Origin: Phoronis australis
Lineage: Eukaryota > Animalia > Phoronida
Length of the DNA stretch: 64,000 nucleotides
NCBI GenBank assembly: GCA_002633005.1
Contig: NMRA01000706.1
Location: 28,197-92,196, forward strand
Direction: 5' to 3'
Within the stretch, counting starts at the first letter, position 1, and each line of letters starts with the position of its first letter. Below are positions 9,888 to 63,897 of the stretch, piece by piece. Below the pieces are notes generated by a model, which was not told the DNA's origin, did not search any database, and saw nothing but the letters and a program-made list of their open reading frames with translations. A program made the translations under genes and the position numbers.

Positions 9888-10056
9888 CTTGGCATTTCTT
9901 AATCGACATGGCTTCGCTGCGACCGTAATAATTATTATTGTTGTTATCCGATAGTCCAAATTTGTCAGCCGTTACGAAACTTTCGGGAATGGCACCCTCT
10001 TTAACAGCTTGGTTGAGAAGAATTTTAGCCATTTCTGTCTCGCTCTCGTATGCAAC
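9888..10056 (-). CDS. Exon E16 (last exon that can be placed)
   Basis: ctaattttccag|VAYESETEMAKILLNQAVKEG...SIKKCQ|gtattc. The phase-0 acceptor matches the E15 donor. An alternative phase-0 donor lies at 9850. Confidence 0.7.
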
Positions 10057-40000: not shown

Positions 40001-43000
40001 ATATCTCGGCTAGATGCTCGGAAAATGGATTTTGAATCACATTCGGAAAGCTTGTCCACACAGGAAACACATATGGCTTTTTTATAATTCCTTTCAGTTT
40101 TACCTTGGGGTTCCAAGGGTATTGTTTCTTTGTTTTACCTCTTGATGACCTAGGCACACGTTTCTCTTCCGTTGATGGGTTTACAAACATGTCAAATCCC
40201 AAGTGTGCAGTTTTCACCATATTTAGCCGTCTTCCATTGTCGTCATAGTCCAAAGACTTCCAAATCTTGTTGAATTCTCTTTCATCGCGTTGTAGGTTGG
40301 CGCAATAATTTGGACATTGCCAGTTAGGTATAGAATATGGTACATTCTGGTTGAACCAGTTAGGTATTGCAACTTGAGGATTGGGATTGAAACAAGAAGC
40401 TGTTGATGCCGAAACGTTATGAGGGTTGTTTGAATTGAATGAAGTTTCACCAATTTCTGAACAGTACGTGTTGACTGGTCTGCCTTCATTAATATATATG
40501 GTTCTTTGGTACGGTGATGTTGCCTTTCTTTCGTTCCTGTCAAGCTTCAGTGACACCTTCTTTTGTCTATAGGCCGATGAAGCACGTTTTACTCGTTGCA
40601 CCAAATATCTCCTTCTAATAAAATCATTATGCGAACTTAATGCTCTTGACAGATAATCAGCTTTTGATGGCTTCTTTCTAGTGCCTCTGCCAAGCTCCCT
40701 ACGGTCAAAAGTGATAGGGTGATCGGGTATGAACGCTTTCCTTTTTGTTGAAATTTCTTTTGTTTGATTCTTCCTATGTGCTTTCTTAGGGGATTGCATT
40801 TGCACCTTCTTTGGCAAAGGTGGCACCATCCTAGGGTGCTTTGTTAACCATACTGAAGTATTTGAAGATTCGACTGGCAATGAATTGTTGTAGTTTTCTA
40901 AATAACATTTACTCTGTAACTCGGGAATGGCTGCCAAGGAGGAAGCAGCTTGAACAGAGTCCATTTTTTTACTCTTGTCTTTATTGCTAGCTTTATTTTG
41001 CGGCTTCCTTATAAACTTTTTGCGGCGTTGACGTTTTTGAGAAGATGTTATATTCGCTGACTCGTTCTTTCGTTTTAGTGGTTTCGTCGGTGCGGACTTC
41101 TTGACAGGTGAAAAAATGCCAGTTGGAAAATCTGAGCAAAAATCAACAATACCATTGATAAATGGAAGCGATCTCGTCGTCCTTCTCGTATCCCGTTCTT
41201 GTTTCAACACTTTTCTACGAGGGGTTCCTACTTTGTTATTCATCGACTTAAATACACTGTCCAAATGATTGTCTGGGCAGTGTTCAGTTATCAAATTCTT
41301 TTTGGGAACTGTTTTCCTCTTGAAATGGGGCCTGTTCAAACTGTGTTTATAACTAATACGTGTTCTTTTTTCTCGGTTTTCTCCTTTTTGGGAGCTATAC
41401 AGGACAGTGCCAGTGGATGTAGTGGATGTCATTGAGGTTTCCGACAACATGTTATCAGAAAAAACAGCCACAACTTGTGAGGAACTGTCGTTTGCGATTG
41501 TTTTGTAACTTGACATATTCTCCTCTGAGTTGGCGCTGCCTTCCTCTGAACTTTCAGAACTACTTAGAGACCAATCACTAGAAAATTTGTCTGCACTGCT
41601 ATCTGGGGGTTGCGTAGCAATGAACCCCTTTTGTCGACCTTGAAAATCAGAGCTTGAACTTTGTCTTTTAGTAGACGGCGAGCCACTTGGGTTATTATTG
41701 CTCCTACTTCGTTGTCTTGTGCAACGCGCATGTCTGGGAGTCGGTGAAGCACTAACACTTCGCCTTCGCTCCGGACACTCCGGTACTCCAGGAAGGAATT
41801 GCCTATCACTTGGTAATGTGAGCAGAGACATGTCGCTGACGTGGTTCAAATCTTTTTCTGTTCCAATTCCAACAGAGACAAACTTCCGTGAACCACTGTG
41901 TGTCGCCACTTCCATCTGTTCTCTGTTCTCTTTGTCCGATTTCCCGTTAGCCTCGTCCTCTTCCATTATGACGTAGCACTTATTATTGTTCACAGTTTCA
42001 CTAGGTACAGACTCTTGCCCTTCTACTGAGGGTTTCTGAATTTCAAGGGCCACGCGTGAAATTTCCGACACGCCTTCACTGGTTACGGAGTCGTCCGACT
42101 GGTTTGATTTGGAGTCTGGTGATTGTTTCCATCTCGGGTCACTTCGGATTATATGCTCAGCATACGAGAACATGTCCATTTGCTTTTGCAATTCTAAACT
42201 TTCCGATTCTCTTGGAATTAATTTGCCGAATACGTCTCTTACGCTATGAAACCAATGACTGTTTGATTTTACTTCCTCTGGGTTGACCTTAGATACAGCC
42301 GAATTACTCTCCGTTCGACAGCTGACGTTTTCGTTTTCAAAGAAAAAATGTTCATCTTCGGGAATTACGTGCTGCTCTAAACGTAAAATAGCTCTTACCA
42401 AACGTCGAGAACATCCGTGGTTTTCTAGGGTTGCTTTTGCGACGCCTTTAAAGAAATTCGGTGGTATTTTTTTATTCGAAATTAAGTCGTAATAAGCTTT
42501 GGTGAAGTTCAATGCATCCTGAATTAATCGTCTTGATGAATATTTGTTTTGTTTAATGATCCGCTTTCGCCAGAGTCCATGTTTTGCAACCCAGTGTCTG
42601 TTGTGGTGAACACAAGCAAAATGGGGCATTCGTACTTTTTGGCCTTGCAACGTTAAAGCCCGACGATTATCTTTAGTTTCCCTTGTTATGTTATCCGGGT
42701 CATACAAGATTTCCCCTGTGCTTCTGTTACTGACTACTTTAACATCAGGATTTAAAGTGGACGAGCGAGGTTGGAGGTTGTGGACCATCTTTTGAACGTC
42801 CGGAATTCCCAGACTACTGACAGTGTCCCGATAAGTGGAAGCCTCCACTTTCATTATTTTCGGAATGTCTGCCCTCCTGTGGATGCGCCCAACCATAGTA
42901 AAATCGTTGTGAGTGAAATCCGGCTGCTCGTTTCGAACGATTGGTTCACCTTTCAATGTCTCCACGGTTTTTCTCCAAAAACGATCATAAATTGAGATTT

Positions 43001-46000
43001 TCTTCCTTCGGTAAATACCCATGTCGGAATTTGACGCGCTCTTGAATACTTCCACAAGCTCCCAGTCGTTTTTTAGCTTGTCAATATCGACATTGGACTG
43101 TCTCTCCTTCTTCCAGACCTCTCGCTTTATTTCCATGAGTTGTGGATCGTCTTCTATGCCCCCGTTTTCGTCTATACGTACTCGACTGTGTCGGCGTAAC
43201 TTATTTTTTATAGCTGAAACTGCCGATGATACAATTTTGGAAGGAATGAACATGCTTCTGTCTGGGTATATGATAACGCTGTCATCAGAGTCTCCATGGG
43301 AACTGGCTGAAATGAACGAATTTGTTTGATTTATGTTGCACTGAAATTACGTGCGTCAACGAAATTTTGTTATCAATAGCAGATAGCAAAGTGCACAACT
43401 AAAAAAGACATAGGTACATGTATTTAATTGCAGTAATAACAAAACAAGATCGGGACTGGTGTAACATTCATAAGTGGGTGTAGCGGAAGCAGGGTTGAAT
43501 AAATTTCAGTGTAATCGAATATTAAGATTTTCATACATGTTCCACGAACACTCGTCATAGCTTTTGCGATTTCTTTACAAATGCATTTGTCTTTCAATTC
43601 CTCTTTTACGGCGCTCGTTCCCTCTTCAATCTGGAAGAAATAGCCCAGACATCTCAAAAGATAAAGGAAGTATTTCATTATATGCTGAAAGCGGACACGA
43701 ACAGCCAAAACAAATTCACGCTTTGTATTCATAAAATACACTTGCGGTATCCAGTGGAAGCCCATTTAAAAAATCAATTAGTGACTGTTTTATTTCGACA
43801 TATGCTCGACTAAACTGGGCAATAGTACTGTCACGTGCTGTAATTCGTACCAAGTTTGGCGGTGTCTGGTTAAATTCTTTCTAAGTATGCAATGTAATTG
43901 TACAAGTTGTTAAGTTATGCATCACTCTGTAAAGCTTAGTGGGGCCAGTCCTTATCAAGATGTGACGTTTCGCCATCTTAACCATCAAATATGAGTCAGG
44001 AGATATTGTACAGGTTATTACTTGGAGTGGTAAATCGTACATTCACTGGCACCCGTGGCATAAGTAGAATCTACCTCTCGTGACGTGTAAAGGTACGCGC
44101 CCTATCAGTGATGAATTTGCAGTGTCAGACATTACTCATTTTTAAATCAGTGCATTTTTGTGATTTGAAAGGACTCCAGTTTCGCTAATTGATGCGGCTG
44201 TATTCTTGGTTTTCTTTTTCGAAAAGACTGTTTAGAGTTAAAGGCAGCAGGGCTACATTTTACTAGGGAGTTAGTTTGCCACGGAGAAAATACCGATCCG
44301 CCACCTTACGAAAGATGACTTTTACATGACTTCCAATGGGGATGAATAAAAACACTGCGAGAACATCGTATACTAATGTTTGTAAAAGATTTTTGTTTGA
44401 AAACTGGGCGGACATGAAAAGACTAACGCATTTCTTTTACAAATATCTTAGTCGAAACACGAATGTTCTAGTGTGCTCGAAAATGGCGACCATGTGACGA
44501 GAATGATGACTCGGATGGAATGAGCTCCGATACCTACCAATATGGGCGTAGGTTTCCTTCCTACCGCTTTATCAAAAGCTGTGGTAACTAGTTCTGCGAG
44601 AGTTTTTTCCGGTCCTTTCTTAGTCCTCCAAGTTTTCGTCTGCGTCTCCTGGTCAAACATGTCCGCCCAGAATGGTGGCTCCTCCTCACGCGCTGGCACA
44701 TCTAATGATGCCAGGGCGGTTGCGTCCACTTCGACGTCTTTGAATTCCCTTTTTTCGGGTGAATCCTCGGAATCAGCAATTGCCTATGCAAATGTATCAA
44801 GGACTATTGCGAATTAGACATTTCCAAGTTGCCCCTAAGAGTTGTAAGACTTAACAAATGTTGGAAATGACTTTCAAAACACTACAATCGACCCAGTTCG
44901 TGTGATTTTTTGTTTGACATTAATGGAGGAACGATTATCGAAAAATGCCCTAAGCCCACTGATTGAACGAGCGACGTGAAAGATTCATTTTTTTAAATCT
45001 ACACGGTGTCCGAAAGTAGTTAAAAACGTAGATAGGGTTCAAGTATTAACAGAAAAGCCTTGCCAAAACCAATAAAATGGCATGCTGAGAGATGACATTG
45101 AAACAGTCTTCGTAATAGTCACCCCCGAAATCAACTGATTTTATGACAGACATTTTTTGAGGTTGGTTGAATCAAATCCGTGATTACGTCCAGAAGCAGC
45201 ACGTGCAGTAATGTTGATGATTAAGTGGACATCAAAACACAGAAAACTATACTAACGCACTCAATATCAAATTTAAAACCGCCATACAGTAGTAGTTCTA
45301 GACTTAAACTGTAGCACTCGTGTTGCGAACTTGTTTATTCTTAAGTTTTTTAAGATTGCAATACTTCTGTTTAATGAGTACATCTCGGTACGCAGCAACA
45401 GTGTGGCATGTTGTCTGACTTGTAAACAAAAGCAAATGACGACCGAACTTGTTACAGCCGAGGTATAACAATGACTGACTCGACAGCTCTCACGGTCACA
45501 CTATATCAAAAGAAATTGACGCGAAATTCTTGCCTCCCAAAACGTCACCTGCGGAGTAAATGGTGAATACTTAATTAAATTACTAAAAGCTATACTTCAG
45601 TGAAAAAGATGTCTGGGATAATAAAAAAACCTTGTTTTTGCTAAAAATGACATGAAAAGTTTGCCTTGCCCTTCAACAGCGTTTGTGAGAGATATCGGCA
45701 AGTTTTCATTTAAATAAGGTTTCATTAAAATCGACCAAATTGTGTTTTAGTATTGTACCGTTGCTGAAAATGAAAACTTGACCTAAAGAGAGCGGCCACG
45801 TTATATTGACGATGGCACGTATGTATAAAGTGTATTTTTATAATCTATCATCTTTCTACACATACTGAGTTACAAAATATACTTTTATAGACATTATGTT
45901 GAATGCACACATTTTGTCGATATGGTCCTACATAATATTAAGCTTGGCTTAATAATAATTTTAAAATTTAAGTTCACATTGCGCAGGTTGTTAAGTTCAC

Positions 46001-49000
46001 TTACATGTATTTGAATTCATGCTATTACCTGTGCTCTTTTACGAAGTCTCCTGTAATATTCTCCCATTATAATGGGGTGAAAGAAAATTTTAGTCAGCCT
46101 GCCAGGTACATAGTGCCGGATGGACAAGTGACGTACTATGCCCTCCCATACTAGTCCGATGCCGAAAGACAACACAGACAGTACGAGGAAGCTCGTCCAC
46201 AAGGCCTTCGATGAAAAAGCAAACTGTTCCCACACCTCGACGCGTTTATCTTCCATGTTGGAAATAATCTTACTCATCGACTGGGTAGAGCTGAGTAAAT
46301 AGGCGTTCAGGAATAACACATTAGCTACTATGCCCATCAGTAAAGTAGCAGCGGCAAACCGTGGAATACATGTAATTGTGTGGGTGCCGGAGAAGATGTT
46401 TAGCCAAAGGTGATACTCAAAGAAGCGCTCTATAAAACACCTTTGGAACAACCTGAAAATATTCGTTTTATCTTGATAGTTGGTCGAATATTGGCATTTC
46501 TGATACAGCGCAGAGTAGCGTGGATGCAACACCAAACAATAACCTAATTCATTACTTTAAGTGGACTGTTGGTCAAATTCTAACTTGGCAACACGTAGCC
46601 ATTGCCATTATCTTCACCAGCATCACCATCTGCCTCAGCGTCACTATTACCATCATATTCATCATCATATTATCATAACCACAACGTCTACAGATGCCAG
46701 TGGTGATTGTGATGGTGGTGGGGGCGGCGGCGGTAGTGGTAATGACGATGGAAATGTTGGTGACATTGGTGATGACAACCATCTTCGCAATCACAATAAT
46801 CACAATCAGCTTCGATATTAGCAGTGAAATGTTCGATCTTAAACACCTGCAGTATAATTTCCCTTAGGTCGTATTAGCCTCAATATTTTTGTCAGCCTCT
46901 TGCCTCATAAATGCTATTTTATTATCCTCATGAACATGTAGGTGGTGCACATCTTTGTGTTCCGTCGAGGTGCGAATCCACTTTTGAGCGGGGAAGTAGA
47001 AATTGGCCTTCGTCACCGGATCATACACAGTGATATCACAACAGTACCTACAAAAAGTAATAGACCGGGAAGACCAATAGTTGGGAATATCGTTTTATCG
47101 AGGAGTGCTGTGATTGCAGTGAACAACAAAACGTCGGTTAAAATACAGAAACGTTTTGAAATTGTATATACTGCAATTATTTTAGTCAGCGGCACCATTT
47201 GCTAGGATATCACTCTAGAGAGCACATCAGCAACCCATTTCTTTAAGTTTTTGGAGTGTATGTTTTAACTGGTCTGCGAGGAGAACAGCAGCCTCCACAG
47301 ACGGTTTGACCCAAAGAATGACAAAGTGAGAACTTAGGATTTACAGGTGAAACTTCTAGCTTCACGTTCAGTCCTTACTAAAAAACAGAATGTTTGTAAT
47401 GAAGGACTAACGTTATTTGCTGTAAACTACACTCGTCGCCTGCGCCGTGAAATTACAAAGAAAAGCGGATTTGAGGTTATTACTTTGCTCAAATGTCGAA
47501 GAAAATAACAAACTTCAGCACTAATGGGCATGGTGCAAGCACGCAGGCAGGATTATAAAAGTATTTCAAATTTCTTAAATGTACAAGCATTTATAAAAAA
47601 GTTAGTCCAAAAAGTGAAGACGCTTAAGCCGTGCTAAATACTTACCTTCCGTAAAAACTGATTTTTAAGTTAAACCACGTACCGTTACAAAACCGGAGTT
47701 GGGAATAGTTTACAATTCTTTCTAGGTTGAAACCAGGCTTGTTACATAAAATAACCAGTCTGACAAGCTAAATTGCTAAACTGGCTCTCAACTGATTGCC
47801 ATAATAAACTGTCATTTCTTTGCAATCCCGGAAATCGTTAATAATTTGAAGAGGGAGGAACTGGAGATTAGCTACATGTGTATATGACAGTATGGGAATG
47901 ATTAAACAATCGCTTGTGACAGATGCCTCTTTAAATGATAACAACTGTACAGAGAGCCGGAAAATGTGAGTTATTGTTACGTGTGTGTATATGGACAGGG
48001 GTGTACTGTGTGATAGTGCCTCTGAAAGTAGCTGAACTCTTGATGGTACTAACCAGTCAGAAAATCCCTTTGCGTCCCCGTAGTTTTTAACTTCAAGTTT
48101 CAGGATTTTTCCCAGGCTGACTGAAATATAACCGAATAATTATACGGAAAACAGAATAAACTAATACCTCATGTACGCCTCTTCAAACTGAAAAGCAATT
48201 ACGAGTGATAACACCACAGCAGTGTGCTGTTAAATGCACAGTTGGTAAAGCGGCGAAAAACCCGTGCTTTCTATCAAAAACAAGTTTTGGTAAATGCCAA
48301 AATGGGTGTGTTATTTCGTACTAAGTTTAGAAATGATCTTTGGGGCTTGTGAAGGAATAAAGAAATGTCTGAGGGAATCTGTTCTGGCTAAAGAACAATT
48401 TGAGACCATTCTCCTAAAGGTGTTTTTGGCAGAAAAGACGGTTAAATGTCGCTTTAAAACGATAACTTAACACGATGTCATCGGGTATATCAGAAATGGG
48501 ACTGTAAGAGTTAAACATTTTCAAAAAAAAAATTCAACAAATTTCCTCCTAAATGGGTTATGGTGTTCAGGGAGATTTTTTTCGAAATTAGTCATTCGGT
48601 GATTGAGTCGACACTAAATGGCGCATGATTTCACCAAGCCACCAGTGCTCACCAAGCTCCTTGACGTATTCATGTATATCGGAGGCAGGCAGATATACAA
48701 ATTCACAAATGACTTATTTCAGACCAAGTACGAAACATATCGACAAGGACATACAAAAAGCTGTAACACTGTTCTTAACGATACAGTATGCCGATCAGCT
48801 TAGGGTTCTGTGTCATGGTGCAGCCACAAATGTATTGCGTGTCGTTTTTTCACAAGCACACGTATATTGCGCATGTGTCGGCGTCTGATAGCACGGCATT
48901 GTATAAAACAAGTTCATTTAATTAGTTCATACCACTGGGAATAAAATGCCAATTGTGCGATTGCACGCCCGACTTGGATAAACTAAAGCAAAATTGAAGC

Positions 49001-52000
49001 TACTTTTCTCGACGTTTAATTTTCTCTTGGCAACGATCATTTGTCACTGGAGGGTATTGCCAGCGGGTGCCGTCCGTAATGTGAGGCTCTTGCGAGTTCT
49101 GCTAAATCACGCACTCAAGAGAAAGGATAGTTTTTCGCGAATGACCTTACGATTTTTCATTGTACTAATGCGAAAAGACATTCACTAATAACAGCTTATT
49201 TTTTAATTTTTATTAAAATGGCATAGGCAAGAAATTGAATGTCTAACCTTTGTATTAATATGGGGCTTTCCACTTGAAGGTGGGCAAAGAGCGATTCCTC
49301 CTTAATATGTAGAGGCCCCACCGGAAGGCAGCCAAGGAGCAAAGGGGAGATTCGCTCTCAGGCCGCCTTCCAGTGGGGCCTTTAAATTGATATAGGCGGC
49401 CCACCTTTTGAAGCCCGAAATTCAATTTCTTTTTCATGTCATTTTAATAAGAATAAATCATTTAAATAATAAGCTGTTTGAACACATTCGAGGGCGAGGA
49501 TTTACCTTTGAACTAAAAGAGAGATGTGTAAGTCAACACACTACATACATTTCGCTAGGCAACATTTCTTCCTTTCTACCTAATCCCCATGTCTCTATTT
49601 CTCTCCTCCTTGTCTTTCCCTCTTTCTATCTCTCTACCTCCTCCCTCCCCCCTNNNNNNNNNNNNNNNNNNNNNNNNNNNNNNNNNNNNNNNNNNNNNNN
49701 NNNNNNNNNNNNNNNNNNNNNNNNNNNNNNNNNNNNNNNNNNNNNNNNNNNNNNNNNNNNNNNNNNNNNNNNNNNNNNNNNNNNNNNNNNNNTCTCACGT
49801 AATCTCGCGAAGTCTTGCTTTTAGCGAGGTCCTAGCGTTACTGAACGGGAGGCAGTTATCTATCCCCATGCGAGGCAGAATGTCCACCAGAATTCCGTAC
49901 CTTCTGTGAAAACAATGAAGACGTCGCGGTTGCCTATCTGAAGCGGGGTTACATTGGGGCGAGATCGGTGCTCTGGATCAAGCGGCTCGTAGAACTCATG
50001 CAGACTATACCATCGTGACACCTGCTTTCCTTCGCCACACAAACGTATGCTAATTTCTGTTACAGTGGATGAGCCTGGTTCAAAGATCCATCTTTAGTCA
50101 GAAGAATTCAAGAGGCAGTTTTATCTGTTATGTAAATTTGTAGCATGCAGTTTGTTCATAAAATTTAAATGTGAAAAATTATTTGTCATTTGGATGTCTT
50201 AGCAATAAATGTCCTGGCTGACTCTCGGATCTAGGACTTTGTGAGTAGTGCACAACACCATTTTTCTAAAGAAGGATATCCGTCTCTAAAATGGTGTGTA
50301 GGGTGAGGGAAATTGCTGCGTTTCCCTATATCTGCCCATGTAACTCTCGTCAAAATTTGCAGTGAGGGAACGTTAAGACGTTAGTGGCCCTTATGCGGCA
50401 GTTGCCACCTTCAGGTCAAGCTTTACTCTAAGGTCACCGTCGCACTTACCTACGTTTTGTACACCGGCTTTGTTGCTATTTGGTAGTAAGTCCAGAGAGT
50501 AGTGCGGATTTTTAGAAAAAATCCCTTATTCAAAATTGCACAGCTCGCTTGCCAAAGAGGGCAATGAGTTTTAATAACTCTGTATTACTTTTCAATACGT
50601 AATTCATGCCAGCGTTTTTCAATATTATCCAGCAAATATCCTATTTGTTAGCAATTAGCAGGCAAGAACAGCGTCAAAGAACCAAATGGATGTAGTAGAC
50701 TGTCACTTTTGGTTTTGCAAAATTCCGATGATTACGTGGTACATGTAGCCAACGTTTGAGAATGAAAAGAGAGATACACTGTACTTGTGTTGTAAAAATA
50801 GGACATACACGTATGCATATAATGAAATAGGCATCAAAGGTCTGTTTTATTAAAAAAACATTTAAGATTGAAGACAAACTGGTCTTGCGTTTCACATGCA
50901 TGTATTACTTCTGAAAAATAATTAAATCTCATGTGAGCAACCGTTGTAAAGTCTCTGAGAATGTACACGCAAGTGCTTGTTAATAAGCAAATTACTGCAA
51001 ATTATTTCTAGAGTTTGTTGTGCTCATGATTACTTTGTTAAACCTTTACTCAACAAAATCTCTGACAATGTACTCACAACTAGGAATTTATTGAAATTAA
51101 TAGTTACCATAAATTGTTTCTTAGACTGTATGCAATCATAAGTACATGGCTGAAGCTTAAATATGAAGTGTGGGCGTAAGACCCACTTTCTGTTTTACTG
51201 TAAGTCTTAAATCACCAACAGAAACAGACCCCAGGGTCACTACATAAACACAAGTGTGGATTGTGCCCGGTGAACAATCGAAAACGCCCCAATGGTGTAA
51301 TAGGGATGAATTGGGTGGTGAATCCCAAACATGTACACTGTTATGTGTAGTAAGTCAAAATTCGAGACCTTTTGACGGTGTGGTGGGATGTGAAGCAAAC
51401 CTTTCAGCGGCTGCAATGTCCACCAAATGCGGGGCTCTGAAACTAATGCTAACCATTGAACCTGCAGCAACCGTGATCACAAACAAAAAAAAAACACTCA
51501 CCTGGCCAAGCCCCTGTGCGAACGATTAGAATGTATGGTACAACCTCACATTGGCCTTTCTTGAGTGGAATAATGCAGCTCTAGTTGAAAAGACAGAATT
51601 CAAAAAACCTGTACTTGAGGCTTCTTACGTTTTCCTATGGCCATTTAATGTTTTGTTGCCTAAGGTGTCTTGTTTAACGTACTCTTGCGTTCGCCGGATA
51701 AAAAAGCTTCTATGAATGTTAATGAAATAAATTTAATCAAAACGTATTCCCAAATGGCACTCTTTTAACTTAACGTTGGTTTTTATCGTAATAGACAGTA
51801 ATTAATAAAGAATTATAGGCTTAATTTCTGAATTGCTTTTGGTGCATCGAGGGATGGGGCTTCCGATTGGACAAACGCATTCTGTTATTCAAACTGATGA
51901 AAGTAACGGCATTTACGAGTCTCAACCATTCGGACAACATGTCATCAATTAGGTGTTGTTCGAAAATATTACGCAGGAATGGTAAAACCACTGAATTTAC

Positions 52001-52594
52001 TTTCACTAATGTCTTGTCACATAATTTGCTCAAAAGTTTAGAACACGTGACGCAGTAAAAGATTTGGTGGTTCACCTAGGGATAACATGGCATGTTTACA
52101 TTTGTATTCGGCAGTATTTAGTATTTTGCACAGCCTGCGGTATTTACCTTCTGATTAAAACAGAATTGCTCATCTCTACCCTATCTAGATGTTTGACACG
52201 TCTGGAGAAACGGGCACCCCCTTCAGATGCTGTGTTATCACAGTGCATGTTTTGCAGGTGTCTCAGAACTTCCCTGCGCACTATAGTATAGAGTGCTCTT
52301 GAATAGTCCTTCTAAGCTCACCTTTCGTTCGTTGCCATACTTCTGAGTCATGTAGAGCAGGACTGCAAATAACCCAAGAATCACTCCTGCAATCATGGGC
52401 GATAAGAAACGAATGAAGTCTTTTTGGGGGTTAGACGGCTTTGGAACAACGATGTCGTAAGGGGAGAATCTTTCGACTTCCGCTGAAGGGTCTTTATGGT
52501 CCGCTGGGGGACTAATGCTGTCACTGATGGTAATAATGGTGCTCAATATGACGGCAATACCCAGGTGGAAAAGGTATCCAGCCATTTTGAGCAT
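9888..52594 (-). CDS. Giant spliced polycystin-1-like protein (signal peptide-TM1-PLAT-TM2-TM3 plus ~5,400 aa disordered region), ~5,800 aa, 3' end unresolved
   Basis: 15 exons chained with matching intron phases: 52594-52322, 51580-51502, 50074-49901, 47721-47646, 47047-46904, 46452-46029, 44783-44538, 43630-43537, 43306-39587, 35585-34107, 30518-28902, 28671-26788, 26375-25482, 18918-12316 (after repairing N artefacts), 10056-9888. The sum is about 17,434 nt, with no in-frame stop once the two artefacts are repaired. PLAT and TM2 motifs were recognised by eye. Confidence 0.75.
10085..10230. repeat. Degenerate (GGT/GAT)n low-complexity tract in intron
   Basis: Visible trinucleotide periodicity. 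Confidence 0.8.
11345..11522 (+). repeat. Dispersed repeat with cccaacttgtt/aacaagttggg hairpin, copy 1
   Basis: Direct, diverged copy at ~20333-20520. Confidence 0.7.
11616..11838 (+). repeat. Dispersed MITE-like repeat, copy 1
   Basis: Shares G/C-tract ends, gcctcagagaaacaaaaa and gctgggtgcg(c/a)gcat with 53756-54001. Confidence 0.65.
12316..18918 (-). CDS. Exon E15: ~6.16-kb single exon, split into three ORFs by N artefacts at 17804 and 15401
   Basis: Acceptor tcctttttgtcatattttttag|GG (phase 1), donor AAG|gtgagg (phase 0). After N17804 a shifted frame reads PRAPPPPLPPSFPQQF...YNWS directly into MDEPFIESP. Collapsing the 440-nt offset duplication at N15401 fuses the 832-aa and 1067-aa ORFs in frame. 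Confidence 0.8.
14964..15840. other. Artefactual/allelic duplication (14964-15400 = 15404-15840) across N15401
   Basis: 437-bp copies identical by eye except one synonymous substitution (15031 t vs 15471 a). Confidence 0.9.
20333..20520 (+). repeat. Dispersed repeat with hairpin, copy 2
   Basis: Similar to 11345-11522. Confidence 0.7.
21654..22066. mobile_element. MITE with ~20-bp TIR C(A/T)GGGCC(C/T)GGTCTC(C/T)AATCT and TCGA-rich interior
   Basis: ctgggcccggtctccaatct ... agattagagaccaggccctg. The same terminus occurs at 173-192. Confidence 0.75.
21769..23043. other. Allelic duplication (21769-22394 vs 22423-23043) across N22422
   Basis: Near-identical copies with a 5-bp indel and three substitutions near the right end. 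Confidence 0.85.
22395..22421 (+). mobile_element. Terminus of a CATAGGCGGATTTAGGGGG element, truncated at the N joint
   Basis: Resembles the reverse complement of the 56870-56891 terminus; absent from the duplicate flank at 23043. Confidence 0.65.
25482..26375 (-). CDS. Exon E14: acidic-tract exon (module copy B2)
   Basis: tcgtattacag|(G)QGKPCVWLKCPKK...GGFF|gtaagt; 894 nt, phase 1-1. Confidence 0.85.
26788..28671 (-). CDS. Exon E13: basic exon ending in Pro/Cys-rich motif (module copy A2)
   Basis: actttttgcag|TA AAA GGA GCA GTG leads into the 627-aa ORF; donor AAAG|gtagca; 1,884 nt, phase 1-1. Confidence 0.8.
28902..30518 (-). CDS. Exon E12: acidic-tract exon (module copy B1)
   Basis: tgtttcgtttag|(G)QKWACRTCKEKDD... 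continues in frame into the 516-aa ORF; donor ATAT|gtacgt; 1,617 nt, phase 1-1. Confidence 0.8.
31733..32992. mobile_element. Kolobok-type non-autonomous element, same family as 6623, with TTAA TSD
   Basis: TTAA at 31729-31732 and 32993-32996. Inverted ends match for all 90 bp visible before the gap. The right arm carries the THAP start MPHCCCVP (ATG 32727, minus). Confidence 0.85.
31823..32702. other. Assembly gap
   Basis: N run inside the Kolobok element. Confidence 1.
34107..35585 (-). CDS. Exon E11: basic exon ending in Pro/Cys-rich motif (module copy A1)
   Basis: Within the 550-aa ORF. Acceptor aataatttag|GT, donor AACG|gtaagt; 1,479 nt, phase 1-1. Paralogous to 26788-28671. Confidence 0.85.
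36089..37767. mobile_element. Second Kolobok family element (internally deleted), nested in a CAGTGGCG-ended element
   Basis: Imperfect TIRs AGGAGCATGCGACCG / AGGAGAATGCCACTCG, flanked by TGAA (36085-36088) and TTAA (37768-37771). THAP N-terminus MLRCIVPACPN...GILFFRLPRE..MLRIWL on minus from 37606. Converging plus-strand remnant from ~37216 (DYQSEQEYSDEEILERR...RMDW), resembling a KolX start. Confidence 0.7.
37768..38245 (-). mobile_element. Second copy (terminal part) of the 55857 element
   Basis: Reverse-complement similarity to 55857-56405; ends ...gatatcctagatctgccactg. Confidence 0.8.
38789..39016 (-). CDS. Possible optional exon (228 nt, phase 1-1)
   Basis: Open frame AFSTSTQGHQK...MQKAMMNQINSKQ...AAKQF with donor TCG|gtgaac. 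The acceptor aatatag is weak. Not counted in the CDS length. Confidence 0.3.
39587..43306 (-). CDS. Exon E9: 3,720-nt basic/Ser-rich exon
   Basis: Contains the 1224-aa ORF. Acceptor ttcgttcatttcag|CC, donor CAAG|gtaagt; length divisible by 3, phase 1-1. Confidence 0.85.
43537..43630 (-). CDS. Exon E8 (small linker exon)
   Basis: tatttcttccag|IEEGTSAVKEELKDKCICKEIAKAMTSVRGT|gtatga; 94 nt, phase 0 to 1, the only open frame after this acceptor. An alternative phase-1 donor 4 nt further on in E7 could skip it. Confidence 0.55.
44538..44783 (-). CDS. Exon E7
   Basis: tttgcatag|AIADSEDSPEKREFKDVEV...KPTPIL|gtaggt; 246 nt, phase 0-0. Confidence 0.75.
45373..45672 (-). mobile_element. Single terminal arm of the same Kolobok family
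   Basis: Similar to 32703-32992 and to the reverse complement of 6623-6920, including gcagcaacagtgtggcat and a degenerate terminus. Confidence 0.8.
46029..46452 (-). CDS. Exon E6: polycystin-1-type TM2 and TM3
   Basis: attttcag|LFQRCFIERFFEYHLWLNIFS...RFAAATLLMGIVANVLFLNAY...FAFSSKALWTSFLVLSVLSFGIGLVWEGIVR...RKRAQ|gtaata. The F..LF......HLW..F motif after PLAT is characteristic of the PKD1 family. 424 nt, phase 2 to 0. Confidence 0.8.
46600..46810. repeat. Degenerate (CAT)n/(GAT,GGT)n low-complexity tract in the GC-AG intron
   Basis: Visible trinucleotide periodicity with a strand switch. Confidence 0.75.
46904..47047 (-). CDS. Exon E5: end of PLAT domain, with GC donor
   Basis: ttactttttgtag|YCCDITVYDPVTKANFYFPAQKWIRTS...NKIAFM(R)|gcaaga; 144 nt, phase 2-2. 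Matches the PLAT C-terminal pattern IxVxDxxT...YFPxxxW. Confidence 0.85.
47646..47721 (-). CDS. Exon E4: PLAT domain
   Basis: tttcaacctag|(E)RIVNYSQLRFCNGTWFNLKISFYG(R)|gtaagt; 76 nt, phase 1 to 2, bridging E3 and E5. Consensus donor. Confidence 0.75.
49654..49792. other. Assembly gap
   Basis: N run after a CT-rich tract. Confidence 1.
49901..50074 (-). CDS. Exon E3: PLAT domain
   Basis: aaccag|(G)SSTVTEISIRLCGEGKQVSRWYSLHE...PLQIGNRDVFIVFTE|gtacgg; 174 nt, phase 1-1. Fits the PLAT pattern GxxTxxxVxIxLxGxxGxS...FxxGxxDxF. Confidence 0.85.
51502..51580 (-). CDS. Exon E2: start of PLAT/LH2 domain
   Basis: ttctgtcttttcaactag|SCIIPLKKGQCEVVPYILIVRTGAWP(G)|gtgagt; 79 nt, phase 0 to 1. YILIVRTG matches the PLAT N-terminal Y-x-I-x-V-x-T-G strand. 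Not in the ORF track. Confidence 0.85.
52322..52594 (-). CDS. Exon E1: signal peptide, short stalk and TM1
   Basis: MLKMAGYLFHLGIAVILSTIITISDS (signal-like) ... DFIRFLSPMIAGVILGLFAVLLYMTQKYGNERK. Acceptor ttttcccgtaacag 2 nt upstream of the ATG (exon starts 52596); donor AAG|gtgagc, phase 0. Confidence 0.8.
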
Positions 52595-52672
52595 TTCTGT
52601 TACGGGAAAACATAAGTCTTATTACCTTTCGAACTAAAAGTGTTAAAATATGACGTTTGTCAGTTCATCGTA

Positions 52673-52852
52673 ACAGTAGTTGTGATGGTAGTGGGGGTGG
52701 TGGTGGTGGTTGTTGTTGTAGCTGTCTATCAGTTGTGGCAGCAGTAGCGGTAGTGGTAGTGGTAGTAGCAGTTGGTAGTGGTCATGATGGTGGTGGATGA
52801 TTTTTGTTGTTGTCTAATAGTTGTTGTGGCAGCAACAGTAGTAGTAGTAATG

Positions 52853-52895
<43 letters not shown>

Positions 52896-53170
52896 CAGTA
52901 GTAGTGGTGGTGGTGGTGGTGGTGATTGGTTGTTGTTGTTGTCTACTAGTTGTTGTAGCAGCAGTTGTAGCATCAGTAGTAGTAGCAGTAGTAGTAGTAG
53001 TAGTAGTAGTAGTACATGTAGTAGTTAGTAGTGATGGTGGTGGTGGTATTAGTGGTAGTAGTAGTCGTAGTAGTGGTATTAGTTATTAGTACTTAGTATA
53101 AGTGGTAATTGTTGTTGTTGTTGTTGTTATTGTTGTCTACTAGTTGTTGTAGCAGCAGCACCAACAACAC
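52673..53170. repeat. Compound trinucleotide microsatellite (GTA/GTG/GTT/GCA)n
   Basis: Long (gta)n runs, with a recurring ttgttgttgtctactagttgttgtagcagcag-like higher-order unit. Confidence 0.95.
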
Positions 53171-53329
53171 AAGCTGTAGTGGTTTTTTTGAAAAAGATAA
53201 TCGGAGTCGGTCTGATACACCTTATATCAGACGTGCGCCGGCCGCACATGTGGGCATATTGCACCGATCATATGGAATCACTTTTATGCTTTATTAATAT
53301 ATAGTTAAAACAGAACTGAATACATAGAA

Positions 53330-53427
53330 ACATGACTCAAGGGTTTAGCAGTGTGACCCAGTGGCATTTGAACCCACGACCTCGAGTTAATAAAGCGGGC
53401 ATCTATCATACTGGGCCACACTGCCTC
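53330..53427 (-). mobile_element. tRNA-derived SINE head (degenerate)
   Basis: Minus strand GAGGCAGTGTGGCCCAGTATGATAG...GAGGTCGTGGGTTCAAATGCCACTGGGTCAC with Pol III box A-like and box B-like motifs. Confidence 0.6.
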
Positions 53428-53755
53428 CTCAGTATTGAGTTAGGCATACATGCTCTCCATTTAGCACGACCAGTGGGGAATTTTCCGCCCCGGGCGTATA
53501 TTCGGGAAAAAAGCAGGGGTGAAATATAAGTATCCTCTTTCCAACTAAACATGAACACCAAAATCGTAGGTAATATAATTTTTCAGCAATAAACTGTTAC
53601 CTCTGAGTACTTATACATGTGCATTGTCGTATATGGGCCATCTCGGTTTCAGTTTACATCTACCTACACAGTATTGAGACGCTCAAACGTATGTTCATTA
53701 TTCATAAAAGCTCGGGTACCGTATGTATCTGTATCTTGGTTTTCAGTTTATAAAC

Positions 53756-54001
53756 CATGCAGGGGGGCTTCGGGGGGCTCGAACGAGCCCCATTATTTGG
53801 TGAAGAGAGTAAAAAGTCTGCCTCAGAGAAACAAAAACTCCAAAAAATACAAAACGAGACAAAAGTCCGCTAAAAAGGCAAGAACAATCAAAATTTGGCA
53901 AATGACCAATTCATAGCTTCGAACGTACCCCGTTAAATCTTAGTGAAAGGTCAACATTCTCAAAATTCGATCCCCCCATTCTTAGGCTGGGTGCGAGCAT
54001 G
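53756..54001 (+). repeat. Dispersed MITE-like repeat, copy 2
   Basis: Same family as 11616-11838. Confidence 0.65.
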
Positions 54002-55856
54002 CTCTAAACTGATATTTTACGAATAGAGGCATGCAGTAAATTCTTGCAGTAGTCTAGTACAGTATAAGTAACCGCACTGGTAAAAGCATGACAATTTTGA
54101 GACATCCAGTTGAGAAAACAGATCAAGTTTGAGTCTAATACTGAAATGAAAAAAATTACTAAAAATGATTTCTCTAACAGCACTAGTGGCAGTAAGAGTA
54201 TTTCAACACTCCGTTTCAAAGAACTTGTTAAAACTAGTTCTTTGAAAGGGCTTGATTTCCGTGAAGTTGCGTTCGCCATATACTGTACTTTCTTCAGATA
54301 AATTTCTTCATGCGGTTTTAATTTTGACGTCCACGAGGTAATATTTAAATGCGATGTTAAAATCGGTTTTGGCCTATTAACAGATACTAAATATGACTTT
54401 ATTGTCTAGTTCTCTGACAACCTCAGGGATTTGAAGGAAACTTTGAAAACTCCTTTCAAAATCCGCTTATGGGGCAAGCGTGAACTGCGCTTTTGGCAAA
54501 TTACGCGGTAACTATGGAAAAAGTCCTTCCACCAAGGATCATAAGGTCCATTTTTGAAATAAGGGTATGCGCTTTAAGTCGATTCCTGCTTTTATCTTTC
54601 AAGATTGACACCAATCCCTGCCTTTATATTTCAAGGTTGACGCCAATGATTTATTGAAATCATCAAAAACGGAAACTTGGGTATCTTTTTAATATGAGGT
54701 TAAGCACTTTCAATGCAGCGGCTGGTTTATCAACTACAGTAGCAGAAGTCTGTTAATGGTAGTGCTTGTGCGAGTAGCAGTAGGAGGAGGAAGAGGAGTA
54801 GTCATGGCAGCAGCAGCAGCAGTGCCAGTAGGGTTGGAAGTCTGTTCGCTCGTAGTGTAACACTTAGTAATATACATTAATCGCATTTGCATTGCACTTG
54901 TAATAATGACCAGGGCATGCCCAAGTTCATTTTAAGATATTAGACATTATACAATTTCTTTCAATTCCTCCATTTGCACATTATATTTACTGAGGGTAAA
55001 CTCATGAAATGTATGGATGTACTTGGTTCATTGCTCAGCATTCAGGTCACTGATACACAGTAATTATAATATGACGTCATTAGGTCAAATTTTGGGGCAT
55101 AAGATGACTGACGGCCTAATTATTCGTTGTGCAATGAGATAAAGAGAGATGAAATATAATACTTGTATTATTCCATAAGTGTTTCAGGGACTTTGATTAT
55201 GTTAATAAACACACTAAGCAAGTGTTTTGCCAAAACACTGGAAACATCGTCCGATTTATGTCCATTTAACAGTCTCTGTGGACTTTTTCGATGGACCTTC
55301 AGCTATGTTTCAGCTCAGATCAAAGACAACAGATACGCAACTCAGATCTTCCAATTGGAATCCACAGAAGACTTTCCGGCTAGTGAGCAGACGACTTACT
55401 TTGTTAGCGGAAGTAAAATTGTGATTATCACCAGGTTCCGATATTGAATAATAACCCCGTGGCCAATAGTGTTGGTCGCGCCGTGTGCGTAATATCGCAA
55501 TTTTTTGTCCATCGAGAATAAACAGCGTTGACTGTCAATGTACTACAGTATATGGTTTGAGGTGAGTACCATCAGTGATCGAAGTAGAACTTAAAGCAGC
55601 AGTACTAGTCTAGTAAAAGTAGAGGGGGTAGCGATTTAGTAACATTAGTAGTATCAGATGTAGTATTAGTTTGTTGTTGGAGGAGTACGAGTAGCCTATA
55701 TTCACCCAAAGCGAGTATTACACAAAAATGAAATGACATCAGAGCACTTAAAACAGATTTTTAAAGTACATATACCAAAAGAATGGGAGGAAAATATAAT
55801 TTTCAGTGTTTTAGTTTCAACCAAACCAAATTCCCACCTTGAAGTACATGTATTTA

Positions 55857-56891
55857 CAGTGGCGGATCTAGGATATCACAAGGCGGGGGGGCAACATTTT
55901 GTCCGGCTGTAAACATTTGCGCAAACTGAACCACGATTGTAGATGCGCATAGCACCAAATGGGGTGAGGTCGGGAGGGGGGTTTGCCCCCCTCCCGCCCA
56001 GGAAATTTTTCTGTTTTGACCTCTAAAAATCAAGTATTTTCCTTGATTCCTGAAGTATTAACCAAGAAAAAAAAAGGCAAAAAAAAAAACACGGAAAACG
56101 TGTCAAACAGGAAAAACTGCAAGTACCAAAGACTCCATCTCACGACCTTGCGCATAGAGCGCGCGTGCGTTACCACTACACCACCACGATTTAGCTACTA
56201 ATCTCATACTAAGAGACGTACTTGTTTATGGTCCACAGCGTTTGCGCGCGAAACCTACTTCTTTTTGTAATGCTTATTACACGTTTTGTGCCATCGATTC
56301 TTAACAAATTTTTCGTATTTAAAATAGTCTTAAAATGCCCAAAAGACCAAATCCGATATTCGTGTTGGCAATAATGACCGGGGATTGCTTTGGAAATCGT
56401 CTTAACATAAGGTTTGACAAAGAGAGCATTGCGAGTTTCTGAGTGATTCACTAAGGCTTCTATTAAAATTCCCATCTTACCAGCAGCTTCTGTTTTTTCA
56501 TCGTCACTCAGATTCCATTTTCTTTAAAAAATGAAGTAAATTTTCTTCATTGCACAGTGGAGCAGACGACGGAAACTGAGTCGTAGTGCGCAGCGCCACT
56601 GCCGGTCGCTTGGGATATCGTGGGAGAGCCTATACTTAGCCATAGTTCCGTTACGAATGCGCCGTGTTCCGAATTTGACACTTGAAATTGGATTTGAGCC
56701 CCCCCCAACACTAAAACTGCACACATTTAAATCTTTTTTCATCCGTATACTTTTAATTACCGGGGTTAATTAATAAACTCAACATTTATTTCCCTACGCT
56801 CTTACTGTTTTATTTTTTTTGCAGCAGCCAAGGGGGGGGGGGGGCGGGGGGCCGGGCCCCCTGGGCCCCCCCCCCCCTAAGCCCGCCTATG
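55857..56891 (+). mobile_element. Non-autonomous DNA transposon with CAGTGGCGGATCTAGG / CCTAAGCCCGCCTATG ends and 5-bp TSD
   Basis: Imperfect TIR with G/C-tract subtermini; ATTTA at 55852-55856 and 56892-56896. An inverted paralog lies at ~36035-36088 plus 37768-38245. Confidence 0.7.
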
Positions 56892-57034
56892 ATTTAGGTA
56901 ACCGCAGACGATCACACCGGATATATTTTTCATCGTTTTACCTTTCTCTAACAACGAACGATCACATCGTCTTCCAACTTGTAATCTCAGTGTTGACCGA
57001 AATCACGCCACACAATGGTCCGAATGCCAGCCAA

Positions 57035-57320
57035 TCAGCCAATTGAATGACTCAGCTTACGAGTTCACAAAATGTAAATGACGGAGTGCCAAAACGAAGA
57101 GTAAAAAGGAAAATCTTCGAGTTCATAAACTCTGTCGAAGGGCATGGTTTCTTTGCAGTTAAAGTCGACGCCTATTTCAGCACATAAATGTGTTCAAAAG
57201 ATGGCAATTTCGACGTGTGCAAGTTAATATTTGATGTACAAATCGAGTATGGTGTTTATGACTTAATGTTACGCTTTCAATGTGCGGACTTCCAATCGTG
57301 TTTTAGGGTTTGTTTACCCA
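57035..57320 (+). repeat. Dispersed ~285-bp repeat; inverted copy at ~63615-63897
   Basis: ctttcaatgtgcggacttc, aatatttgatgt and ataaatgtgttca are all found reverse-complemented in 63615-63897. Confidence 0.65.
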
Positions 57321-58380
57321 CTGGAGAAGGGAAAGTTATACCCGGTGCTTAAGATAGCAGTTGACAAGGACCCTGTTATGATTTATGATGCTAAAGATGA
57401 CAGTTGACACTGACCCTGACATTAGTTACGAATCAACTAGAAATTAAGAGTTCTATACACGTTGTAAATTCTTCTGGATGGACAAAGTCTTTGGTATACC
57501 ATACTTACTTGTAAAGAGTTGTTCTTCACTTTCGATTGTTTTTCCGTGATGTAAGCTCGTGAGGCTTAACGTAAAGCATCACATTCACGTGTTCGATCAA
57601 TGACAAAGTTACGCAATCAAACGTATTTAGAGAAGTTATGATACAACTCTACACATTTCTATAACGCATGTTGTGCAGCAGCTTACATAATATTTACTTA
57701 GGTGCACGCGCTGGCCATTGTGTGTTAATAATATCAAGATTAGTGATATGCAGGTCCATTTAAAACAAGGAAAAAGCCTGGTTTCTAATAGAACATGGAC
57801 TTGTCATTTTAATCTTTTGAACCTGATAAAGTCAAAAATTTTGACCCACCACTACAAAACGAGTCTTGAGTCGGGATTTGTCATTTTTTTAATTGTTATT
57901 TTTTCTGAAAATACAGTGTTTTCTGATCATTTTGAGGTATGAAACATGTCCTTATCTTCACAAGTGACCGAGTTATTGCCAATTCTAGTCGAGGAAAGCG
58001 AAAATTTAGAGCTTCAAAAGTCAAGGAAAATGGCCGACAAAAAGTGCCAATAGTGTCTTTAAAATTTCCATAGCAACCTGCAGTTGAATGCTACATTTCA
58101 GACTTATTAGTATACACAACAACATAAACAAATAAAAGGAATCAAAAATTAGACAGAATATAGACCTTATTATGTAATCTCAGCCAAAAAGGAGTGATAT
58201 TCATGTTGGGTTGCTGCAACTGAGTCAATAAATTTCCCAGCTAATGCATACAGGGTCAGTCCACTTGTGGCAGGAGGGGTTACCGCAAGTAAAACAAGAA
58301 GTTAAAGTGTATTTCGGAGAAGTTTAATAAAATTACAAAATACACGTTCCTGGCTGATTTTTGTTCAAAATAATTCAAAA

Positions 58381-58500
58381 TTTTACGCNTACGCCGTAAA
58401 GAATTGAATTACGCTCGTAATTTTACGGCGTAATTAACGGCGTAAATAACGGCGTAAATAACGGCGTAATGTACATAATTACGCTCGTATTTTTCCGGCG
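58381..58500. repeat. 12-bp tandem repeat ACGGCGTAA(A/T)TA around a single-N joint
   Basis: acggcgtaattaacggcgtaaataacggcgtaaataacggcgtaat, with an inverted unit tacgccgtaaa at 58390. Confidence 0.85.
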
Positions 58501-59570: not shown

Positions 59571-59790
59571 GGGCCCTTTTCCGAGAAACTGACTTCATTT
59601 ATACCTTAAGCCTAACATTTTTCTTAACTTCCGAACTCTGAAACTTCCGCATTAGCTTAAGTAGTCAAAATTAAGACAAAACTTCAGTCAAACTTAAGAT
59701 CTCTTTCTTGAGACAAATTTAAGTGTTATCTTAAAATTTACTAAAGTTTAAGATTTTTCTTAGCTGAGTCAGTTCTGTTGAAACGGGCCT
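59571..59790. mobile_element. MITE with GGGCCC-type imperfect TIRs and TTAAG-rich interior
   Basis: gggcccttttccgagaaactgact ... agtcagttctgttgaaacgggcc. Confidence 0.55.
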
Positions 59791-63614: not shown

Positions 63615-63897
63615 GTCAATAAACCAAAACAGGGTTAGAAGTCCGCACATTGAAAGTGTAGAACAAGTAAAAAATATCACACGCGAATTGCACATCAAAT
63701 ATTGACCAGCACACATCGAAATTGCGATCGCGTGAACACATTTATCTGCTGAAACAATATGGTGAATTCAACTGCGAGGAATCAACCCCTCAAAAGCACT
63801 TATTCAGTTAAAGATTCCACTTTTTACTCAATTCGCTTGTCGCTCGGCATTTCCATCTTTGTACATGTAGCATCGTAACCTGCATTCACTTGGCTGA
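63615..63897 (-). repeat. Inverted copy of 57035-57320
   Basis: gaagtccgcacattgaaag, acatcaaatatt, tgaacacatttat. Confidence 0.65.

What the first reader, a model, noticed from the sequence alone, without database searches (positions are those of the whole stretch)
52322..52596. Signal peptide in place of the REJ/GAIN ectodomain: a genetically pre-cleaved polycystin fragment?
Seen in sequence: a hydrophobic N-terminal segment (residues ~7-23) lies only ~40 aa before TM1. The stalk FSPYDIVVPKPSNPQKDFIRFLSP loosely resembles the post-GPS stalk (F.V.PN.IDF...NP) of invertebrate PKD1-like proteins. I found no REJ/GAIN-like exon in the 11.4 kb upstream. Established: PKD1-family proteins self-cleave at the GPS to give a C-terminal fragment that starts with this stalk. 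Inference: signal peptidase could yield an equivalent fragment directly, without an adhesion or sensor ectodomain.
Basis: partly seen in the sequence, partly recalled or inferred. Interest (0 to 1): 0.7.

Follow-up and report, generated by a model that had tools for sequence, protein, structure and literature searches.

The report
Polycystin-like protein born without its ectodomain
RNA reads show this animal gene spliced from a short upstream exon with no start codon straight into a predicted signal peptide, so its protein, likely a relative of the kidney-disease receptor polycystin-1, would be made without the large outer sensor region, and it likely runs on into a huge inner tail where the ion-channel half normally sits.

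Summary
Observation confirmed, interpretation partly supported. Exon E1 (52596-52322, minus strand) encodes a hydrophobic N-terminal segment, a 40-residue spacer and TM1. Stranded RNA reads (2 of 3 raw-read runs) splice it to five further exons giving a PLAT-like domain and TM2/TM3. They also show the missing upstream exon: 48 reads join acceptor 52596 to a donor at 57509. That exon has no in-frame ATG, an in-frame stop lies 72 nt upstream, and short overhangs put the transcript start about 20-45 nt above the joint. So no GAIN/REJ exon joins in these samples. The stalk matches human PC1 in register (26 residues to TM1, F-x4-hydrophobic-V-x-P). But it is not shown to equal a cleaved C-terminal fragment. 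Signal cleavage would leave 13-16 extra residues before the stalk. No TM4-11, TOP or pore was found in the window; after TM3 come phase-compatible giant exons of at least 5,300 hydrophilic residues (not read-checked). No homologue was found, SignalP was not available, and PKD1 kinship rests on one sub-threshold PLAT hit plus motifs and spacing. Verdict: a real, unusual ectodomain-less PKD1-derived gene; new variant of a known kind.

The parts
57509..57536 (-). Exon 0: short upstream exon, likely first and non-coding; donor GTAAGT after 57509. Read letters reach at least 57536; likely start about 57530-57555. No in-frame ATG; in-frame TGA at 57581-57579.
   Evidence: Loose ends of 24+24 reads map uniquely to 57513-57536; frame analysis; overhang simulation
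52597..57508 (-). Intron 0, 4912 nt, GT-AG, phase 1
52322..52596 (-). Exon 1: ATG 52594, leader, spacer, stalk-like segment, TM1 (91 codons)
   Evidence: 3 of 3 read polymorphisms in E1 are synonymous
52526..52576 (-). Hydrophobic core (residues 7-23) of predicted signal peptide; -3/-1 sites after residues 24 or 26 most plausible
   Evidence: hydropathy, -3/-1 rule; single-sequence AlphaFold helix 2-27; no SignalP run
52397..52474 (-). Stalk-equivalent, residues 41-66 (26 residues to TM1), with F43-x4-I48-V49-x-P51
   Evidence: human PC1 stalk 3049-3074 and its peptide in PMC9171645, PMC12513491
52343..52396 (-). TM1 (about residues 67-84)
51502..51580 (-). Exon 2: linker and first PLAT-like strand (PLAT starts at residue 107)
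   Evidence: joints with 60/30 and 39/21 reads in X1/X2
49901..50074 (-). Exon 3: PLAT-like, strands 2-4
   Evidence: joints; ESM Atlas nearest named clusters are beta-sandwich domains, not PLAT
48054..48120 (-). Exon 4: PLAT-like middle
   Evidence: joints 41/39 and 36/35 reads
46903..47047 (-). Exon 5: C-terminal third of PLAT-like domain; GC donor (GC-AG intron)
   Evidence: top Pfam hit PLAT, profile 80-111 of 117, E 0.075, 14.2 bits, cutoff 23; joint 14/24 reads
46029..46451 (-). Exon 6: TM2 (about 278-296) and TM3 (about 334-352)
44534..44783 (-). Exon 7: start of hydrophilic region; acceptor read-supported, donor (44538 or 44534) not resolved
   Evidence: joint 18/14 reads
9888..43340 (-). 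Inferred continuation: giant exons 43340-39587, 35585-34107, 30518-28902, 28671-26788, 26375-25482, 18918-12250, then 10056-9888; at least 5,300 hydrophilic, low-complexity residues, no TM segment; 3' end not found
   Evidence: GT-AG ends, matching phases, 3,580 codons without a stop, maximum KD19 1.35; not checked with reads; small exons 44020-43430 unresolved

Best explanation
This expressed, spliced gene likely descends from a PKD1-like gene that lost its REJ/GAIN ectodomain, and it likely uses a new first exon and a predicted signal peptide to keep the front membrane module (stalk, TM1, PLAT-like domain, TM2, TM3) the right way round, so that it would act as a membrane anchor for a giant inner tail rather than as a ligand-gated receptor-channel. 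Steps: (1) shown: exon 0 splices to exon 1 and carries no in-frame ATG; exons 1-7 splice in one frame; expression in 2 of 3 raw-read runs. (2) inferred: exon 0 is the first exon, so translation starts at 52594 or 52585. (3) predicted: the leader sends the 40-residue spacer out of the cell and is cut after residue 24 or 26, so TM1 runs out-to-in and PLAT faces the cytoplasm as in PC1. (4) from the family: PLAT binds phosphatidylserine and PI4P and directs trafficking (PMC9672506). (5) inferred: after TM3 the chain stays in the cytoplasm as at least 5,300 basic, Ser/Pro-rich, probably disordered residues that serve as a tethered scaffold. The stalk is then likely a vestige kept as a spacer, because its known target (TOP) was not found.
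For: 24+24 reads cross the acceptor into exon 0 with median loose length 9 and 13 nt, against 39 and 36 at the 3' joint; depth halves towards the 5' end of E1. A long upstream transcript would give equal overhangs and flat depth. Unique map to 57513-57536 with donor GTAAGT; in-frame stop 72 nt up. Six read-supported joints give a stop-free 469-codon frame. PLAT, named in advance, is the top Pfam family for exon 5 in the expected register. Stalk register: 26 residues to TM1 as in PC1, and 66 to the PLAT start against 71-73 from Pfam GPS end to PLAT start in three zebrafish proteins. No GPS, TM4-11, TOP or pore motif in six frames; no channel-family hit in 99 minus-strand ORFs of 1-9841. Channel-less PKD1 relatives exist (SpREJ1, 2, 7, 8, 9: PMC1934368).
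Against: No homologue found in any search, so conservation of the leader is untested. The PLAT hit is below Pfam's cutoff, tied with an unrelated family (E 0.078), and 15 of 99 mostly non-coding ORFs got some Pfam hit at similar or better E; exons 2-4 gave no PLAT hit. The PLAT and stalk motifs were written after seeing the sequence. The giant exons are chained by phase only. The 3' end is not found, so a channel half may lie left of position 1, in the N gap 7709-8497, or be too diverged to see. RNA-seq is not cap-based, and only two expressing samples from one study were seen.
Confidence: 0.5

Rival explanations
1. A true natural C-terminal-fragment mimic: the gene goes on beyond the window into TM4-TM11, so the giant region is an enlarged TM3-TM4 loop, and the protein is an 11-TM, permanently unsheathed partner of a PKD2 channel with its stalk always exposed.
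For: The last inferred exon (10056-9888) ends at a phase-1 donor without a stop. The TM3-TM4 loop is cytoplasmic by topology (recalled). The stalk register is kept and its polymorphisms are silent. Engineered signal sequence + CTF constructs work and raise calcium permeability (PMC12513491).
Against: No TM4/TM5, TOP or pore candidate in the 9.9 kb after the last exon, although exons elsewhere in the gene lie at most about 6.6 kb apart. A 5,300-residue loop would be over four times the whole PC1 CTF of 1,255 residues (PMC12513491). The mature N-terminus would carry 13-16 extra residues before the stalk.
Confidence: 0.27
2. Same gene structure, but the leader is an uncleaved signal anchor (an extra TM0), so residues 25-66 form a short outer loop and there is no free stalk end at all.
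For: The hydrophobic stretch is long for a signal peptide (17 residues, KD19 1.95, close to TM2's 1.92) and is modelled as one helix over residues 2-27.
Against: Short basic n-region, small residues at -3/-1 after 24 and 26, then a Pro-Pro break fit a cleaved signal peptide.
Confidence: 0.1
3. An internal-promoter isoform of a longer PKD1-like gene whose ectodomain exons lie beyond 64000 and are used in other tissues.
For: Precedents: short form of human PKD1L2 from exon 12 (PMC1934368); CTF-only transcripts of adhesion GPCRs (PMC6667449). The intron is phase 1 and the frame is open for 23 codons, with two weak AG sites at 57564 and 57555. DNA beyond 64000 was not available.
Against: E1 itself has no GPS: the positions equal to the C-x-C-x-H-L hold none of these residues, and a hydrophobic helix stands where the end of GAIN should be. 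An upstream GAIN spliced on would be cut off from the stalk by it.
Confidence: 0.06
4. Not PKD1-derived: an unrelated membrane protein with a beta-sandwich after its first TM segment.
For: No significant database, PDB or fold match.
Against: Order leader-stalk-TM-PLAT-TM-TM, PLAT hit in register, stalk spacing equal to PC1.
Confidence: 0.07

Closest known systems
Polycystin-1 family (human PKD1, PKD1L1-3, PKDREJ; sea urchin SpREJ3-6)
   Same: Stalk of equal length before TM1, PLAT-like domain directly after TM1, then TM2 and TM3; N-terminal signal sequence.
   Different: No REJ, GAIN or GPS; the leader is 40 residues from TM1 instead of hundreds to thousands; TM4-11, TOP and pore not found; at least 5,300 hydrophilic residues after TM3.
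Engineered signal sequence + PC1 CTF constructs (sCTF, PMC12513491)
   Same: Signal sequence placed directly before the stalk and TM1.
   Different: Natural here; 13-16 extra residues before the stalk; channel half not found.
Channel-less PKD1 relatives: SpREJ1, 2, 7, 8, 9 (1-6 TM; PMC1934368), partial zebrafish pkd1l3 (PMC5318412)
   Same: PKD1-type proteins without the six-TM channel domain.
   Different: Those keep the GPS and the ectodomain; this gene has lost them.
CTF-only transcripts of adhesion GPCRs (PMC6667449)
   Same: Ectodomain removed at the level of the gene or transcript, not by proteolysis.
   Different: Those are isoforms of intact genes and lack an obvious signal peptide; this one has its own predicted leader and no GPS in its first coding exon.
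Drosophila Brivido-1 to -3 (PMC4843867)
   Same: Diverged PKD1-like proteins with fewer than 11 TM segments.
   Different: Brivido has 8-10 TM segments; its N-terminal architecture was not in the passages read.

Membership tests
PKD1 / SpREJ family | REJ domain (about 600 aa) in the ectodomain | tested here: not met
   Transcript start inferred 20-45 nt above E1's acceptor, no in-frame ATG; no REJ hit in 38 upstream ORFs
PKD1 / SpREJ family | GAIN domain with GPS cleavage motif before TM1 | tested here: not met
   No strict GPS motif in six frames; two loose matches lie on the other strand or in an intron (motif recalled)
PKD1 / SpREJ family | PLAT/LH2 domain directly after TM1 | tested here: met
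   Exon 5: top Pfam family PLAT, profile 80-111/117, E 0.075, below cutoff; only single exons could be scanned. 6 of 6 recalled motifs in order, 0 of 20,000 shuffles above 2, but motifs were set after seeing the sequence
PKD1 / SpREJ family | 11 TM segments with TOP and TRP-like channel domain | tested here: inconclusive
   Only TM1-3 found; no channel motif or Pfam hit in the window, but the 3' end of the gene is not resolved
PKD1 / SpREJ family | N-terminal signal sequence | tested here: inconclusive
   Hydropathy and -3/-1 rule fit; SignalP not available
PKD1 / SpREJ family | Significant sequence or fold match to known members | tested here: inconclusive
   No hits with single exons; fold searches of a single-sequence model of exon 6 gave only generic helical rows; the full HMMER search did not run
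PC1 C-terminal fragment (tethered agonist) | Stalk of 26 residues before TM1 | tested here: met
   Residues 41-66; F-x4-hydrophobic-V-x-P at the same offset as PC1; 697 of 100,000 shuffles hold the motif (post hoc)
PC1 C-terminal fragment (tethered agonist) | Free N-terminus at the first stalk residue | tested here: not met
   No -3/-1 site between residues 29 and 39; the plausible sites after 24 or 26 leave 14-16 extra residues, the last site (28) leaves 12 (prediction only)
PC1 C-terminal fragment (tethered agonist) | TOP domain and pore loop as the stalk's target; G-protein-binding tail | tested here: inconclusive
   Not found in the window; 3' end unknown

The most novel reading that the evidence does not exclude
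A natural 'pre-cleaved' polycystin: evolution replaced GAIN autoproteolysis by a signal peptide, giving an always-exposed stalk on an 11-TM PKD1-like subunit whose TM3-TM4 loop has grown to more than 5,000 residues. It would be a constitutively active, ligand-independent PKD2 partner that also scaffolds the inside of the membrane.
Probability: 0.25. Interest if true: 0.75.

Novelty: new variant of a known kind. Interest (0 to 1): 0.52.

Why it matters
PKD1-family proteins are defined by a large ectodomain that is cut at the GPS, and their stalk is studied with engineered signal-peptide + fragment constructs. A gene that encodes this layout naturally shows that the ectodomain and GAIN can be dropped while stalk, TM1 and PLAT are kept. 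It offers a natural test of what the membrane module does without its sensor: whether the stalk still signals, and whether TM1-PLAT-TM2-TM3 works alone as a targeting anchor. Short PKD1-like gene models in invertebrates could be dismissed as incomplete; here reads support the short 5' end.

Tried and rejected
Protein searches with exon 6 (248-2000 aa candidates, 0 of 265), the 1,255-aa exon (2198-5000 aa, 0 of 2,766) and exon 1 (50-160 aa, 0 of 3) found nothing; the length limits exclude a full-length orthologue of about 6,000 aa. The full HMMER search of representatives never ran, so homologues remain untested. Metagenome locus L001 is a chance match in a nuclease-like ORF (label recalled) and was dropped. 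PDB sequence searches with exons 1, 3, 5, 6 gave nothing significant; a weak kainate-receptor match of the stalk (E 1.2) is chance. ESM Atlas: no useful hit for exon 6. Fold searches of the exon 6 model (pLDDT 62.8) were uninformative. I first read ORFs at 4899-4699 and 2698-2480 as channel helices S3 and S6; motif and Pfam scans did not support this. 'HL' at residues 10-11 as a GPS relic was rejected: it is 53 or more residues from TM1 and lacks the cysteines. A trans-spliced leader was rejected: the loose letters match genomic 57513-57536 before a canonical donor. The sigma-70 scan is irrelevant to an animal gene. No RNA holder was listed by index; the raw-read runs came by species label. 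Literature searches (open-access library only) listed no description of a natural PKD1-like protein that starts with signal peptide plus stalk; supplements were not read.
Full report
The finding is exon 1 of a minus-strand gene. Its frame reads from ATG 52594: six residues with one lysine, a hydrophobic stretch (7-23), a polar Pro-rich spacer, and a second hydrophobic stretch from about residue 63-67.

Expression and splicing. Three raw RNA runs and one contig set were laid on 44001-64000. In X1 and X2 the exons are covered on one strand only; X3 and X4 show no exon coverage, although X3 covers the repeats of the region as deeply as X1 and X2. Six joints are read-supported (X1/X2 reads): 52322-51580 (60/30), 51502-50074 (39/21), 49901-48120 (41/39), 48054-47047 (36/35), 46903-46451 (14/24, a GC-AG intron) and 46029-44783 (18/14). 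Joined, they give a frame of 469 codons without a stop with four hydrophobic segments: leader, TM1, TM2 (278-296) and TM3 (334-352). The three read polymorphisms in E1 are synonymous; of the others shown, I checked the two that fall in exons 3 and 6, both Val to Ile (842 further differences were not shown by the tool). The tissue of the runs is not given.

On 52250-52850, 24 reads in X1 and 24 in X2 run past the acceptor into other letters. These map once in the window, to 57513-57536, before a GTAAGT donor at 57509. The intron is in phase 1 and the frame stays open for 23 codons, but it holds no ATG and meets TGA at 57581. Loose lengths are short (median 9 and 13 nt against 39 and 36 at the 3' joint of the same exon), and depth falls from 95 to 49 (X1) and 59 to 35 (X2) towards the acceptor. 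A crude simulation gives such overhangs only if the RNA begins about 20-45 nt above the joint; 150 nt or more gives equal overhangs and depth ratios of 0.8-1.0. The simulation did not reproduce the 3' median (60 against 36-39) nor, in one model, both overhang and read count, so the range is approximate. If overhangs were uniform up to 80 nt, medians this low would have probabilities of 3e-6 and 1e-4. Inference: exon 0 is a short first exon, and 52594 (or 52585) is the start. Two weak AG sites (57564, 57555) leave room for a rare longer form.

Kinship with PKD1. Only single exons could be handed to the search tools. Exon 5 alone has PLAT as its top Pfam family, matching profile positions 80-111 of 117 (E 0.075, below the cutoff). 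Such E-values are common here (15 of 99 mostly non-coding ORFs had some hit up to E 0.16). What counts is that PLAT was named beforehand and falls in the right third of the domain. Six recalled PLAT motifs occur in order over exons 2-5 (post hoc). The human stalk spans 3049-3074 (PMC9171645, passages) and its printed peptide has F, F-V and P at positions 3, 8-9 and 11 (PMC12513491, passages). Here F43, I48-V49 and P51 sit at the same offsets, and residue 41 is 26 residues before residue 67 where the TM1 core begins (697 of 100,000 shuffles hold the motif). The distance to the PLAT start (66) is close to 71-73 from Pfam GPS end to PLAT start in zebrafish Pkd1l1, 1l2a and 1l3 (PMC5318412, passages). 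No GPS motif exists in the window. No homologue was retrieved, so kinship is likely, not proven.

A GPS cut exposes the first stalk residue. Signal peptidase sites by the -3/-1 rule fall after 18, 19, 22, 24, 26 or 28 and none between 29 and 39, so roughly 13-16 residues would precede the stalk. The PC1 stalk acts through the TOP domain and pore loop (PMC9171645; PMC9672506, passages). These were not found. After exon 7 lie very long minus-strand frames. Six of them have GT-AG ends and matching phases and join into 3,580 codons without a stop; the sixth goes on across two single-N assembly breaks for about 1,700 more residues and splices in phase to a small exon at 10056-9888. The total is at least 5,300 residues, rich in S, K, R, P and N, with no 19-residue window above KD 1.35. 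None starts or ends like a separate gene, but none was checked with reads. In 1-9888 no TM4/TM5, TOP or pore motif and no channel-family Pfam hit appeared. The gene may end there or go on past position 1.

Mechanism. Without an ectodomain, TM1 still has to run out-to-in for PLAT to face the cytoplasm; a leader 40 residues upstream does this whether cleaved or not (inference from standard membrane-protein biogenesis). PLAT in PC1 binds phosphatidylserine, PI4P and beta-arrestin and controls trafficking (PMC9672506). The TM2-TM3 hairpin returns the chain to the cytoplasm. I therefore favour (0.5) a targeted membrane anchor carrying a giant disordered scaffold, with the stalk as a conserved spacer. 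The main rival (0.27) is a full 11-TM natural CTF mimic with the channel half outside the window. Restricted expression and the basic low-complexity tail suggest a specialised cell such as sperm, where REJ proteins act (PMC1934368, parts 1-2 of 4 read), but the tissue is unknown.

Comparison and novelty. All SpREJ and human PKD1 proteins but SpREJ10 have a GPS; several SpREJs lack the channel domain; PKD1L3 lacks REJ but keeps GPS, PLAT and 11 TM (PMC1934368). Adhesion GPCR genes make CTF-only transcripts without an obvious signal peptide (PMC6667449, passages). Planarian PKD1-like proteins all keep PLAT (PMC11448475, passages); Brivido proteins have 8-10 TM (PMC4843867, passages). Eight searches of the open library listed no natural leader + stalk + TM1 + PLAT protein; subscription papers and database annotations were not covered. 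It fails the GPS and REJ tests, so it is not filed as a canonical member; it is best called a PKD1-derived variant. Interest 0.52.

Noticed in passing
window 35585-34107 and 28671-26788 (-): Two of the giant exons are paralogous over about 440 residues (local score 386) and end in the same Pro-rich motif, so part of the tail grew by exon duplication.
   Followed up: partly
window 46902-46452 (-): Read-supported GC-AG intron between exons 5 and 6.
   Followed up: yes
window 52596-44538 (-): Read depth is highest at the 5' end and falls downstream in X1 (about 82 on E1 to 42 on E7), less so in X2 (52 to 46); unexpected for a very long poly(A)-selected mRNA and may point to shorter transcripts.
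   Followed up: no
window 14964-15703, 21769-22722, 1797-2026: Identical tandem duplicates flanking single N bases; likely assembly artefacts, one of which breaks the 18918-12250 exon.
   Followed up: partly
window 6637-7708, 31729-32996, 45372-45658, 37478-37843: Repeated elements with terminal inverted repeats and THAP-like frame starts (Pfam THAP E 3e-4 at 37478-37843), next to the large N gaps.
   Followed up: no
window 768-923 (-): Short Cys-rich ORF with a weak ADGRF3_N Pfam match (E 4.5e-4, below cutoff); possibly a mini-exon of this or another gene.
   Followed up: no
window 60675-61004 (-): ORF with a weak Piezo_TM25-28 match (E 3e-4, below cutoff) and only about two same-strand reads in X1; probably chance.
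   Followed up: no
window 57842-59468: Repeat transcribed in all three raw-read runs (reads mostly from other copies), about 300 nt upstream of exon 0.
   Followed up: no
window 2200-6300 (+): Several plus-strand frames look exon-like but had no Pfam hit; a convergent gene here would bound the 3' end of the PKD1-like gene.
   Followed up: partly
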